Source: Octopus sinensis (Eukaryota). From it: a stretch of 64,000 nt of DNA. Positions 9,045 through 63,310 of this stretch are shown here, piece after piece. Where the stretch lies: NCBI RefSeq assembly GCF_006345805.1, contig NC_043002.1, forward strand, positions 13,516,001 through 13,580,000. Reading direction: 5' to 3'. The notes under the pieces are model-generated. The model did not search any database. It was not told where the DNA came from and saw nothing but the letters and a program-made list of their open reading frames with translations. How positions within the stretch are numbered: position 1 is the first letter of the stretch; each line of letters opens with the position of its first letter. Both the position numbers and the translations under genes were made by a program.

Positions 9045-9300
9045 TTGCAGCGTGGAAGGTGTTGTAGTAAGCCATTTAAGAAACACACAAAAACCGTTAC
9101 ATTCACTTCACATTTAAATTTAATTTGCCAAAATATTTTCGTCGCTTTGAGACCGCGACCTGTTCACTGACAAAATATCGTGCTAACAGGTCGCGGTCTC
9201 AAAGCGATGAAAATATTTTGACAAATTAAATTAAATGTTGAAGTGAATCTAACGTTTTTGTGTGTTTCTTAAATGGCTTATAAACACCTTCAACGCTGCA
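9045..9300. repeat. Fold-back element (~120 bp arms) in a TA tract, PLE-like remnant
   Basis: Arms are reverse complements (gcagcgtggaaggtgtt.../...aacaccttcaacgctgc) and carry an HHR-like motif. Confidence 0.85.
9124..9174 (-). ncRNA. Type I hammerhead-like motif, G3-C8 core variant
   Basis: UUUGUCA-GUGAACA-G-GUCGC(ggucucaaa)GCGAC-GAA-AAUAUU-U-UGGCAAA. Confidence 0.65.
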
Positions 9301-9459
9301 ACTGTTTTCGTTCCAGCACACGATCTCAGATCAATCCTTGCTATGCAAGTACTCTGCCCCTCATATATATTTACATATATATATATATATATATGTTATA
9401 TTGTAAAAACAGTAAGATAACAAGAAGAAAGAGACCTCATATTATGTAAATAGAGGAAA

Positions 9460-9848
9460 TCTTATATATAAAGTGAGGTTGTGTGTCTGTCTCCTACGAT
9501 TTAGATTCCTAACTACTCCCACATTTTGCGGTGCAGTTTAACCAAAACCGGGTATCTTATAGTCGTGATTCATATCGAGACCGTCTGGGTATTAGCGCGC
9601 GTCTACGATGAGTCTACGATTTAAAAAAAAATTACCATCAATTTTTCCCATTTTTAATCCATTTTTGACATATATAGGGAAGTAACTCTCTAAAATTTAT
9701 TATTAAATCTCAGAACGTAAAAAGCTACAGTAAACACCCCTCCCCCTTTGTGGTTAGCATATTGAGATGGCTATTATACTTTACATCTCTAAAAATGCTT
9801 ATATATTATTTCCCTTACAACCCGAGCAACGCCGGGCGATACTGTTAG
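9460..9848 (+). mobile_element. Short non-autonomous Helitron
   Basis: TC start, same body and 3' hairpin as 7028-7418, ends TTAG|T. Confidence 0.8.
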
Positions 9849-11028
9849 TGTATATATTATTATATATATATATTATATATATATATATATAATATATATT
9901 TTTATTATATATATATATATATATATATATATATATATATATATATATATATATTATTATATATATATATATATATATATATATATAATATATATATATA
10001 TATATATATATCATATATATATAATATATATAATGTATATATATATATATATATATATATATATATATATATATATATATATATATATATATATATATAT
10101 GTTATGTATATATATATATATATGTATATATACATATATGTGTGTGTGTGTGTGTTTGTGTGTAAACGGTCGCTTGACACTGATGCTAGTGTGTTTACGT
10201 CACCGTAACATTAGCGCGGTTCGGCAAAAGTGACCGATGGAATAAATAACAACCTTAAAATAACCACCGGGTTAAAACGTAAAAGACGTCCTCATGAAAC
10301 GTATGTAACTTTTTATTAAAAGCGTTACTTTAGCTCCGCCATAAAATATATTTTATTAGCCAAGCCGTGTCGTCAAAAATGACGGCTAATTGTAGTATTT
10401 TATATATAAATATGGTACGAAGCCAAGTTTTTAAGTTACTTTTCAACTACAATCGTTTTAAATTCTTGATATACCCCAGCAATAATTCTTTTCTCTAATG
10501 AATTTGTATATGTTTGTGTAGGTGCTTGTGATTGTAATAATTACTTTTAGCGAGACAGATAGAATGTGGACGGTAAATCGAATTAATACACTTGTTATCA
10601 ATGTTATCCAGTGGTTGTCTTTTGTTACTGAAAGGACGCTGGTTCACACATACAAACATACACATACTTCCCTTGTATCCGCACACACATACACACACAT
10701 ATACTCACGGAGAGCTGAAGCGCTGTTTGATTTTTCTTTTCAGCGTTGAAGGATAACCATCCCACTTCCATTGCACACACACACACACACACACACACAC
10801 ACACACACACACACACTCACTCACACATTCACATACCTCCCTTTTACACACACTCACACACACACATTCACACAGAAGCATAAATTTCATCATAGCAGAA
10901 ATCAAAAGCATACAAAGGGAGTTTACTTTCCTTTCAATGCGATAGGAGTTATTTCCCTTACATTCAACGTGAGCTAATTTTCAGAGAGTATACCTTTTCA
11001 GTTTTGAAGTTGAACAAACATAGATACA

Positions 11029-60720: not shown

Positions 60721-60853
60721 TTATTATCGACCATTACAACACCTGTGCCACGGCACAGCTGTATTGTGCCGCGTATGCTTTGCAAGCGCCCAGCATGCTT
60801 TGAAGCATTGTCGAGAACTGTCCATAGATTTGGAAACTTGGGAGGTATTTATT

Positions 60854-61745
60854 AAGGCGGCGAGCTGGCAGAAACGTTAGCACGCCGGGCGAAGTGCTTA
60901 GCGGTATTTCGTCTGTCTTTACGTTCTGAGTTCAAATTCCGCCTAGGTCAACTTCGCCTTTCATCCTTTCGGGGTCGATAAATTAAGTACCAGTTACGCA
61001 CTGGGGTCGATGTAATCGACTTAATCCGTTTGTCTGTCCTTGTTTGTCCTCTCTGTGTTTAGCCCCTTGTGGGTAGTAAAGAAATAGGTATTTTAATGCA
61101 CTTCATTGGTGCAAGCGTATTTATTTACATCAAATTGCATTAGGCGTGTCCATTTTTGCTTTAAAATAAAGTTCATTTATTTCAAAGAGGCTAAACCTAG
61201 AGGGGAGAAACAAGGACAGACAAAGGGATTAAGTCGATTATATCGACCCTAGTGTGTAACTGGTACTTAATCGACTCTGAAAGGATGAAAGGCAAAGTCG
61301 ACCTCGGCAGAATTTGAACTCAGAATGTAACGGCAGACGAAATACCAATTTCTTTACTACCCTCAAGGGGCTAAACACAGAGAGGACAAACAATGACAGA
61401 CAAACGGATTAAGTCGATTATATCGACCCCAGTGTGTAACTGGTACTTATTTAATCGACTCCGAAAGGATGAAAGGCAAAGTCGACCTCGGCAGAATTTG
61501 AACTCAGAACGTAACGGCAGACGAAATACCTATTTCTTTACTACCCTCAAGGGGCTAAACACAGAGAGGACAAACAAGGACAGACAAACGGATTAAGTCG
61601 ATTATATCGACCCTAGTGCGGAACTGGTACTTATTTAATCGACCCCGAAAGGATGAAAGGCAAAGCCGACCTCGGCGGAAATTGAACTCTGAACATAACG
61701 GCTACGCATTTCGCCCAGCGTGCTAACGTTTCTGCCAGCTCGCAG
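60854..61745. mobile_element. SINE B monomer (+, 60854-61090) and trimer (-, 61185-61745), tail to tail
   Basis: Family B sequence; the trimer has two conserved internal junctions. Confidence 0.9.
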
Positions 61746-63037
61746 CCCTACAAAGTAATACGTTTGGTAGGACTGAACATTCGGTCAATTCGCTCCCACG
61801 ACTTGATTGTTACTTGTTTTACATCTCTTGGAAGCAAGAAATTCGAGCAACATCGGCGGAATTCAAACTGAAAAATGAAAAAAATCAAAAACAAAAATTA
61901 AAAAATCAAAGACTATTGCAATGTATGGTGACCGAGTCGCTACTGTTTCTGCTAATACTCTTTCGCTGAGAATTTGTGTGTGTGTGTCTGTGTGGGTCAG
62001 AGTGCTTGTGGGGTATTGTGCGTGTGCATATATCTGTGTTTGTGTATGTGTGCGTGCGGGTATATCTGTTGTTGTATGTGTATGAGTGCGTGTATTTTGT
62101 GCTTGTGTGTAAGCGTGCACGTATGTATGTGTGTGTGTACGTGTTAAGTTTTGTGTGCGTGTGTGTGTGTGTGTGTGTGTTTGTGGTACGTTTTTAATGT
62201 GTGTATGTGCGTGCGTGTGCGTGGGCTATGGTTGGTGCTTGTGTATGTGCTATGTTTTGTGTGTTTGTGTGCGTGTTATATCTTCTTTGTGTGTGTGTGT
62301 GTGTGTGTGTGTGTGTGTGTGTGTGTGTGTGTGCGGCTGTTTGTTTAGTGATTCCAAATACTTTCTGACAAAGATAAAACTTAATATCCCGAAGCTCGAG
62401 TGACATTTTTGTCAGAAAGTACTGACCTCGCAAACTTAGAAACTTATTTAAAGTCGATTTAATATCTCAAATGCCTTAGATAAAATGTTAATACGATTAA
62501 TATTCGACTCTGAGCAGTAAGATAATCAGAGTGCTTGAGTGGAAATCTTCCAACGTACTTAGTCGCTTTCTCTTTCAGTTCTGAGTTCGATTTTTGCTCA
62601 GGTCAACTGTGCATTACATCCTTCTGAAATCAAACGGCGATCGACTGGCCTCTCATTCAAATGAATGTTCTGATCTCGGGCACTTAGACGCTATGAAAAC
62701 CGTATAACTTGCCCTGTGAGTCCTGAGATCCGAGATAGTAATGCCAGGGGTTGATGATGATGATGATGATGAGGAGGAGGAGGAGGAGGATGAAATCGAT
62801 AATACAAGTATCAAATGTTAAAAACTAAAATTATAGTTTTGCGGATAATTATGTTCGTCGTTAATGACGGACAGTTAAAAAGTAATTATATTTATAATGC
62901 GTTTCGACCGGTTTAATCAACGATCGTCAGCAGCTTTCATATTCCTCTATAGCTTTTACTTGATTCAGTAATTAGTCTACGGCTATGCTTGTGTACTGCA
63001 TTGAAAGGTTTTAGTTAGTCGAACAAATCGACTAATT

Positions 63038-63310
63038 TTGTTGTGTCTGAGAAGAGTCATTCTCTTTTGGTGCCTTATAATTTCACACACTCACCGGAAA
63101 AATTTCCACTTATTTTTTATTTTTATTTTTCTAAAATTTTCGTTGCGTCTTGCAACATTTTCAATAGTTTTGACCCAAAATAAAAAACAAAACAAGTGGA
63201 AATTTTACCGGTGAGTGTGGGAAATTATAAGGTACGAAAAGAGAATGACTCTCCCTAGACAAAACAGAATATGCTTCAACACTCGAACTCACATAAAGAA
63301 TCTTGCAAAA
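63038..63310. repeat. Fold-back of the U3-core HHR family, inserted in a minus-strand SINE A (62950-63655)
   Basis: Inverted arms agagtcattctcttt...cacactcaccgg; homologous to 39094-39937. Confidence 0.85.
63131..63167 (-). ncRNA. Minimal type I hammerhead-like motif, U3-A8 core variant
   Basis: CUA-UUGAAAA-U-GUUGC(aagac)GCAAC-GAA-AAUU-U-UAG. Confidence 0.6.

What the first reader, a model, noticed from the sequence alone, without database searches (positions are those of the whole stretch)
9124..63167. Hammerhead-like ribozymes whose cores show all four Watson-Crick versions of the 3-8 pair
Seen: unrelated short repeats share the type I HHR layout (helix I, 7-nt core, often one extra nt, helix II, GAA, palindromic helix III, H17, helix I'). 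The cores are CUGAnGA (20427, 40790, 54220, 56965), GUGAACA (9161-9167), UUGAAAA (63158-63164) and AUGAAUA (12863-12869). U4, G5, A6 and A9 are held while positions 3 and 8 change together. Established: C3-G8 is a Watson-Crick tertiary pair in the active HHR fold, compensatory swaps can rescue cleavage, and PLEs carry minimal HHRs thought to work as dimers. Inference: this genome hosts a radiation of PLE-mobilised ribozyme families with covarying cores that CUGAnGA-based searches would miss. Sporadic natural 3-8 variants are known, so the novel part would be their density and diversity.
Basis: partly seen in the sequence, partly recalled or inferred. Interest (0 to 1): 0.85.

Follow-up and report, generated by a model that had tools for sequence, protein, structure and literature searches.

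The report
Hammerhead cores with four swapped pairs
In this octopus genome, families of Penelope-like jumping genes carry hammerhead-shaped RNA motifs in which a key internal base pair occurs in all four paired versions; this likely reflects selection for a working self-cutting fold, although cutting has not been tested.

Summary
Confirmed and extended. Of the seven sites, 4 pass a strict type I hammerhead descriptor, one for each Watson-Crick 3-8 pair; shuffles give 0.15. The other three are worn copies of canonical families.

The variants are family traits, not decay. With the core left free, the first 100 listed copies were 89 G3-C8 (4,644 matches), 94 A3-U8 (328) and 92 U3-A8 (2,607), and none was canonical.

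The G3-C8 motif precedes an in-frame reverse-transcriptase ORF, and the A3-U8 motif follows a GIY-YIG endonuclease, so these are Penelope-like element repeats. The families are not all unrelated: the G3-C8, U3-A8 and one C3-G8 family share a homologous ORF start, so the pair covaries within one clade.

Natural U3-A8 is published. I did not find natural G3-C8 or A3-U8 families in print, but three key papers were unavailable. This scan earlier noted U3-A8, and G3-C8 motifs with an extra base, in other genomes.

Against: cleavage is untested, canonical families outnumber the variants, and A6U, U4C and A9C families also exist.

The parts
9124..9174 (-). Family F1 type I hammerhead motif, G3-C8 core at 9161-9167; 7-bp helix I, 5-bp helix II, 6-nt palindromic helix III, predicted cut after U17 (9131)
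   Evidence: family counts
9044..9188 (-). 5'-truncated F1 terminal-repeat copy that holds the motif
9185..9352 (+). Inverted second F1 copy, cut inside the core, ending with the first codons of the element's ORF; predicted to lock the motif in a long hairpin (59.5 kcal/mol)
7698..9872 (-). Young carrier repeat of about 2.2 kb (about 95-98% identical between copies) in which this F1 copy has been multiplied as a passenger
12858..12892 (+). Family F2 hammerhead motif, A3-U8 core at 12863-12869; 5-bp helix I, 2-bp helix II, 6-nt palindrome, predicted cut after C17 (12887)
   Evidence: family counts; dimer fold
12827..12997 (+). F2 element remnant (an assembly gap lies just upstream); the same sequence lies downstream of a GIY-YIG endonuclease in L169
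63131..63167 (-). Family F3 hammerhead motif, U3-A8 core at 63158-63164; 3-bp helix I, 5-bp helix II, 4-nt palindrome, predicted cut after U17 (63134)
   Evidence: family counts
63035..63317 (.). F3 insertion: minus-strand copy 63035-63174 plus an inverted arm 63177-63317 holding the ORF-start codons
56929..56972 (-). Family F4 canonical C3-G8 hammerhead motif, intact
20421..20482 (+). Family F6 canonical C3-G8 motif with bulged helix II, partly decayed
40765..40797 (-). Family F7 canonical C3-G8 motif (core 40788-40794), decayed
54132..54233 (-). Family F11 canonical C3-G8 motif with a very long helix II, decayed
39803..40000 (+).

Best explanation
These motifs are the small type I hammerheads in the terminal repeats of several families of Penelope-like retroelements, with G3-C8, A3-U8, U3-A8 or C3-G8 as each family's majority state, and the pair was likely kept by selection on active master elements for a slow, probably dimer-dependent self-cleavage that is untested here. 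Shown: the motif sits about 90-105 nt upstream of the ORF start in F1 and F3, and 285 nt downstream of the endonuclease stop in F2. Most copies seen are short 3'-end insertions, often with an inverted arm, in AT-rich or microsatellite DNA. Inferred mechanism: a tandem transcript (repeat-ORF-repeat) brings two motifs together; their palindromic helix III strands pair between copies; the 3-8 pair positions the ribose of residue 8, whose 2'-OH is the essential group, so any Watson-Crick pair can serve; the RNA would be cut after residue 17, perhaps helped by the element's protein as reported for the Anolis element. Inferred history: reverse transcription starts about 90 nt into the ORF and leaves thousands of dead copies that decay neutrally, so selection acts on masters only. 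C-G/U-A and G-C/A-U are each joined by a wobble intermediate, but moving between the two groups needs a mispaired step, which likely happened twice because F1 and F2 belong to distant element lineages.
For: Family-level cores with all seven core letters free, first 100 listed rows each, counted by eye: F1 89 G3-C8 of 100 (4,644 matches); F2 94 A3-U8 of 100 (328); F3 92 U3-A8 of 100 (2,607); F5 92 C3-G8 of 100 (349). No C3-G8 row occurs among the 300 variant-family rows, and reversed-pattern controls give 0. In unselected 599,800 bases, hits scoring 11 or more were 7 paired against 1 unpaired; shuffles gave 0.4 and 0.6. All 10 multi-copy families tabulated are paired, permutation P about 2e-4, not corrected for kinship. 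F1, F3 and the F5 group share an ORF start (41-58% identity among L204, L214 and L212; E 2e-6 to 2e-13) with synonymous codon changes. The G3-C8 motif in L205 is followed by an ATG in frame with a stretch 97% identical to the RT region of a 1,042-aa open frame (L203), whose C-terminus is 53% identical to two Pfam GIY-YIG hits. The A3-U8 motif follows a GIY-YIG domain (E 2.5e-8) in L169, with a compensatory A-U to G-C change in helix I; a 433-nt contig from a public run bridges endonuclease and motif. Another U3-A8 family follows an RT plus GIY-YIG ORF (L158). Two F2 copies fold into the dimeric hammerhead at -15.3 versus -7.2 kcal/mol for two monomers. Engineered C3G/G8C partly restores cleavage in a Penelope-like element hammerhead (PMC11167929).
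Against: No cleavage data; only assembled contigs were available, and these cannot show RNA ends. In PMC11167929 the hammerhead was not needed for insertion in vitro, and no reads began or ended at the cut site. PMC4209133 reports only low activity even as dimers. Successful families here carry uncompensated core changes: A6U in 13 of the 17 aligned copies of one abundant family, U4C in a subfamily of F6, A9C in 4 copies of an F5 subfamily. The lowest-energy dimer folds of F1 and F4 did not use helix III, and that of F3 lost helix I. Copies decay at positions 3 and 8 about as often as at other core positions, so the copies themselves show no selection. Many F1 copies are passengers in larger repeats. 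L203 had no Pfam hit at E 0.05. The RT of F2 was not seen, and no element with both repeats intact was fetched.
Confidence: 0.7

Rival explanations
1. The hammerhead fold, including the 3-8 pair, is selected as a structure (dimerisation seed or binding site for the element's protein near the ORF start), not for cutting; cleavage is negligible in vivo.
For: The hammerhead was dispensable for insertion in vitro and no RNA ends were found at the site (PMC11167929). Activity is low as dimers (PMC4209133). A6U, U4C and A9C families have multiplied.
Against: The 3-8 pair positions a catalytic ribose (PMC8495972 passage). U4, G5, A6, A9, GAAA and H17 are kept together in F1, F2, F3 and F5 while the helix sequences diverge. 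Naiad elements thrive without hammerheads (PMC8557442), so a general structural need is not evident.
Confidence: 0.2
2. The variants are dead relics: each family's master drifted after losing the ribozyme, and the paired states are coincidence or inherited accidents, amplified passively.
For: Few independent events (about three changes explain the four states); F1 copies ride in carrier repeats; uncompensated core changes exist in other families.
Against: All 10 families tabulated are paired (P about 2e-4), as are all 8 high-scoring singletons. Helices I to III stay paired with compensatory changes. G3-C8 needs two transversions from either pyrimidine-3 state.
Confidence: 0.08
3. The motifs are chance matches, or copy-specific decay of canonical cores.
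For: The motif is short, and three of the seven window sites fail the strict descriptor.
Against: Shuffle controls; 0 canonical cores among 300 listed variant-family copies; fixed position relative to the ORF.
Confidence: 0.01

Closest known systems
Minimal and small-palindrome type I hammerheads of metazoan Penelope-like elements (Cervera and De la Pena 2014, PMC4209133; main text parts 1-2 of 4 and supplement file 2 parts 1-2 of 3 read)
   Same: Type I layout, short helix I, extra base after A9, G10.1-C11.1, palindromic helix III, place in the terminal repeats, mostly single truncated copies or opposed pairs, many families per genome, and a U3-A8 family of about 1,300 hits in Schistosoma mansoni.
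   Different: Its alignment of 56 representatives shows only C3 or U3 cores, and 'Octopus' does not occur in the supplement file searched. G3-C8 and A3-U8 families, and three states inside one homologous clade, are not in the parts read.
Natural U3-A8 hammerheads (Perreault et al. 2011, PMC3088659; passages and section 3 part 2 read, supplements not seen)
   Same: First natural covariation at 3-8; also a natural A6C variant.
   Different: Only U3-A8 is named; no purine at position 3 in the text read.
Poseidon element PAc of Anolis carolinensis (Frangieh et al. 2024, PMC11167929; parts 1-2 of 4 read)
   Same: Hammerhead next to the ORF start; genomic copies end where reverse transcription starts, 111-118 nt into the ORF (here about 92 nt in F1); AT-rich targets; C3G/G8C partly rescues cleavage.
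   Different: There G3-C8 is an engineered mutant; here it is the natural majority state of a family with thousands of copies. There the ORF starts inside the ribozyme; here it starts downstream of it.
Small dimer-cleaving hammerhead variants of Penelope-like elements (Lunse et al., RNA Biol; not held, seen only as a citation in PMC6765202, otherwise recalled)
   Same: Short palindromic stem III, cleavage as dimers.
   Different: Could not check whether its data set includes G3-C8 or A3-U8 cores.

Membership tests
Type I hammerhead ribozyme | Three helices around the core, with the ends in helix I | tested here: met
   (helix I has only 3 bp in F3)
Type I hammerhead ribozyme | U4 G5 A6, A9, G12 A13 A14, A15.1-U16.1, H17 | tested here: met
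   F1, F2, F3: 80, 85 and 80 of 100 listed copies have the exact family core; GAAA and H17 in the window copies
Type I hammerhead ribozyme | Literal C3 and G8 (CUGAnGA consensus) | tested here: not met
   0 of 300 listed copies of F1, F2 and F3; so filed as a variant
Type I hammerhead ribozyme | Watson-Crick pair between positions 3 and 8 | tested here: met
   89, 94 and 92 of 100
Type I hammerhead ribozyme | Self-cleavage after residue 17 | not testable with these tools
   only contigs available
Type I hammerhead ribozyme | Match to an Rfam hammerhead model | tested here: inconclusive
   no hit for the three variants, but none for the intact canonical control either
Dimer-type hammerheads of Penelope-like elements | Short palindromic helix III able to pair between two copies | tested here: met
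   palindromes in all four strict hits; the full dimeric hammerhead is the lowest-energy fold only for F2
Endonuclease-bearing Penelope-like element | ORF with RT followed by a C-terminal GIY-YIG endonuclease | tested here: met
   L158 Pfam RVT_1 plus GIY-YIG. F1 via L205/L215/L203 by motifs and similarity, no direct Pfam hit. F2 endonuclease only. F3 and F5 by homology of the ORF start
Endonuclease-bearing Penelope-like element | Hammerhead in terminal repeats flanking the ORF | tested here: inconclusive
   seen upstream of the ORF (F1, F3, F5 subfamily) or downstream (F2, L158 family), never both ends of one element in the stretches fetched
Endonuclease-bearing Penelope-like element | 5' truncation, inverted 5' copies, sharp 3' end, AT-rich or (TA)n targets | tested here: met
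Retrozymes (non-coding tandem repeats making circular RNA; definition from abstracts) | Non-coding repeats of several hundred nt with canonical hammerheads, expressed as circles | tested here: not met
   the motifs are tied to coding elements and have minimal helix III; circles were not testable

The most novel reading that the evidence does not exclude
One animal genome holds the complete natural four-way covariation of the hammerhead's tertiary 3-8 pair, including the first natural G3-C8 and A3-U8 ribozyme families. They cleave, perhaps only with their element's protein, which shows that Penelope-like elements are under selection for ribozyme catalysis and that searches fixed on C3-G8 or U3-A8 miss whole families.
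Probability: 0.45. Interest if true: 0.7.

Novelty: new variant of a known kind. Interest (0 to 1): 0.55.

Why it matters
Whether the small hammerheads of Penelope-like elements do anything is open: they cut poorly in vitro and were dispensable in the one reconstituted system. Compensatory change at a tertiary catalytic pair, three states in one clade and a fourth in another, is the kind of evidence that argues for selection on the active fold. The sister families give ready-made natural constructs to test it. It also supplies natural counterparts of swaps so far described as engineered, and shows that hammerhead descriptors should leave positions 3 and 8 free but paired. It is a variant of a known ribozyme in a known kind of element, not a new system.

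Tried and rejected
Rfam: the whole-window scan listed no hammerhead among the best 150 of 315 matches, and local scans missed even the canonical control, so they are uninformative.

Top BLAST copies of F1 (30 of 30 G3-C8) were not used as the main count, because they are ranked by likeness to the query and all lie in one carrier repeat; core-free patterns replaced them.

A pattern meant to find F1 copies outside the carrier gave 12 matches, nearly all carrier-like. Walking upstream from 16 of 40 copies of another subfamily met a second shared flank, not an ORF. A peptide search was sent in the wrong frame and served only as a rough candidate count. A 3'-end pattern showed no shared continuation in the first 100 of 370 rows. 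The link to the ORF came instead from two database proteins.

My first reading that site 54220 is not a hammerhead was overturned by its homologues.

Sequencing runs: no RNA holder listed on record, contigs only. The L203 ORF has no match in Pfam or among solved structures.

Left out of the permutation test: a U3-G8 wobble seen at one duplicated locus (L020/L021), all singletons, and F11, which was found later.

Literature: ten full-text searches surfaced no natural G3-C8 or A3-U8 family; most listed papers were seen only as listings. Lunse et al., Przybilski and Hammann 2007 and the Terminon paper were not held. The Perreault supplements and Cervera supplement file 1 were not seen. Any of these may hold such variants.
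Full report
Observation. All seven cores are in the sequence, five of them on the minus strand. A type I hammerhead descriptor with positions 3 and 8 free returns four hits in 64 kb: G3-C8 at 9124-9174 (-), A3-U8 at 12858-12892 (+), C3-G8 at 56929-56972 (-) and U3-A8 at 63131-63167 (-), and no unpaired hit. 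Forty dinucleotide shuffles give 0.15 paired and 0.35 unpaired on average. The other three listed sites are canonical but worn. Homologues show that 20427 belongs to a family with a bulged helix II and 40788 to a family with a 4-bp helix II, and that 54220 belongs to a family with a helix II of about 68 nt (5 of 39 homologues fetched).

Family or decay. Each variant has over a thousand first-look candidates in the 2.72-Gb genome. BLAST ranks by likeness to the query, so I counted cores with patterns that fix the flanks and leave all seven core letters free. The tool lists the first 100 matches by position, and I tallied them by eye. F1: 4,644 matches, 89 G3-C8, 80 exact. F2: 328 matches, 94 A3-U8, 85 exact. 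F3: 2,607 matches, 92 U3-A8, 80 exact. None of these 300 rows is C3-G8. Departures are spread over all core positions, as expected for neutral decay of dead copies.

Chance. In 60 evenly placed 10-kb stretches (599,800 bases) the descriptor gave 11 paired and 2 unpaired hits, and 7 against 1 at score 11 or more; eight shuffles gave 1.1 and 4.1, and 0.4 and 0.6. Those paired hits were C-G and U-A, apart from one low-scoring A-U. With the core entirely free and only helices plus GAAA required, the random set plus window gave 16 hits within one change of UGA..A, 15 of them paired, against 0.33 in shuffles. All ten multi-copy families tabulated are paired; permuting position 8 gives P about 2e-4. 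This treats kin as independent and leaves out one duplicated U3-G8 locus, the singletons and F11. All 8 high-scoring singletons were also paired.

What carries them. A protein that its source names as from Octopus sinensis matches a genome stretch at 100%, so this is an octopus genome. A GIY-YIG search (147 matches, 30 loci fetched) found the A3-U8 motif 285 nt after the stop of an endonuclease in L169, in sense, with a compensatory change in helix I. A 433-nt contig from a public run bridges the same junction. Seven of the 30 loci carry a different U3-A8 motif after the endonuclease; L158 has RT and GIY-YIG by Pfam. For F1, copies end sharply about 92 nt into a reading frame and are followed by unrelated, mostly AT-rich DNA. 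Two database proteins continue that frame, and searching with the continuation found long copies. In L205 an intact G3-C8 motif lies 92 nt before the ATG. A stretch 1,164 nt further on, in the same frame, is 97% identical to the RT region of a 1,042-aa open frame (L203) with RT-type motifs (recognised from recall) and a C-terminus 53% identical to two Pfam GIY-YIG hits. L203 itself has no Pfam hit. Truncation, inverted arms and (TA)n targets match published Penelope-like traits (PMC8557442 passages).

Covariation within one clade. The tails of F1 and F3 encode homologous peptides with synonymous codon changes. A third group, F5, has the same peptide behind a C3-G8 motif (92 of 100 rows C3-G8, 349 matches). 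The ORF starts of F1, F3 and an F5 subfamily are 41-58% identical, and copies of F3 and of that subfamily continue into ORFs 33-37% identical to that of F1. So G-C, U-A and C-G occupy the same site in sister families while the helix sequences differ. F2 lies in another lineage: its endonuclease is 47.5% identical to L158's and gave no hit to L203. A purine at position 3 therefore likely arose twice (inference).

How it likely works. The 2'-OH of residue 8 is essential and C3G partly rescues G8C (review passage, PMC8495972). The same double change partly restores cleavage in the hammerhead of an Anolis Penelope-like element, which cleaves only with its protein present (PMC11167929). I infer that tandem transcripts bring two motifs together through the palindromic helix III and are cut slowly after residue 17, and that selection on master elements kept the pair. 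Two F2 copies fold into the dimeric hammerhead (-15.3 versus -7.2 kcal/mol). For F1, F3 and F4 the lowest-energy dimer was not the full hammerhead. The window's F1 copy is predicted to be inert, locked by its inverted arm (59.5 kcal/mol), whereas the L205 version folds within 1.3 kcal/mol of its optimum. The window copy is also a passenger in a 2.2-kb carrier repeat.

Against. Nothing here shows cleavage; only contigs were available. The Anolis hammerhead was not needed for insertion and left no RNA ends, and activity of such motifs is low even as dimers. Other families here have uncompensated changes: A6U in 13 of 17 aligned copies of an abundant family (the last two rows of that alignment are F7 and are not counted), U4C in an F6 subfamily, and A9C in four F5-type copies. 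The window is richer in variants than the genome: in the random 600 kb the canonical families F4, F6 and F7 had 12, 7 and 4 copies, the A6U family 9, F3 3, and F1 and F2 none.

What is known. Natural U3-A8 was reported in 2011 (PMC3088659) and as a family of about 1,300 hits in Schistosoma elements in 2014 (PMC4209133). That paper's 56 representatives show only C3 or U3. Ten full-text searches surfaced no natural G3-C8 or A3-U8 family, but three pertinent papers were not held and some supplements were unseen. Earlier notes of this scan list several U3-A8 cases and two G3-C8 motifs with an extra core base in other genomes (unchecked).

Verdict. A real, family-level new variant of a known ribozyme in a known kind of element. 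Interest 0.55.

Noticed in passing
window 37348-37354 (-) and 41123-41129 (+); L149, L099, L131 and others: An abundant repeat family, related to F7, has a hammerhead layout with U in place of A6 (13 of 17 aligned copies; 9 copies in 600 kb). A6C is published and prefers Mn2+ (PMC7151607 passages); I did not see A6U described in what I read.
   Followed up: partly
window 53198-53425; L149 6580-6700; L097: An F6 subfamily has U4C, with compensatory changes in helices I and III. In the window it forms an inverted repeat that Rfam scores just under the mir-9 threshold, probably a false microRNA call.
   Followed up: partly
L208, L210, L212, L149 (about 4420): An F5 subfamily has C in place of A9 in all four copies seen, upstream of ORFs homologous to F1's.
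   Followed up: partly
window 7698-9872 (-): Young 2.2-kb composite repeat, 95-98% identical across 30 fetched copies, carrying the F1 hairpin and a 106-bp tandem array. Its ends resemble non-autonomous Helitron-type elements (recalled, not tested). A piece of its end also matches 6173-6458.
   Followed up: partly
L083 860-1500; L181-L196: A recurring composite in which an F3-type (U3-A8) remnant lies back to back with an F1 (G3-C8) unit across a microsatellite; the microsatellite stretch also precedes F1 in long copies, so it may be part of the terminal repeat.
   Followed up: partly
window about 12915 (+) and about 63090 (-): Splice-donor-like hexamers lie shortly after the F2 and F3 motifs; Penelope-like elements are known to keep introns in their terminal repeats.
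   Followed up: no
P0002; G000:C3988 (L204): An annotated 'uncharacterized protein' joins the F1 ORF N-terminus to methyltransferase domains; probably a gene-prediction chimera of an element and a host gene.
   Followed up: no
G000:C1:212100587-212113081; L198: Three F1 copies spaced about 6.2 kb apart, suggesting a tandem duplication.
   Followed up: no
L138 4381 and 4459; L163; L037; L148; L111: Further U3-A8 and C3-G8 hammerhead motifs with 6- to 10-nt palindromic helix III, from families not present in the window.
   Followed up: no
window 3186-3662, 30274-30642, 60988-61702: Tandem and inverted copies of a repeat of about 184-255 bp; resembles a common octopus SINE-like repeat (recalled).
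   Followed up: no
one search hit list: Several close relatives of the L158 ORF are annotated as proteins of bivalve gill symbionts; probably host elements mixed into symbiont assemblies.
   Followed up: no
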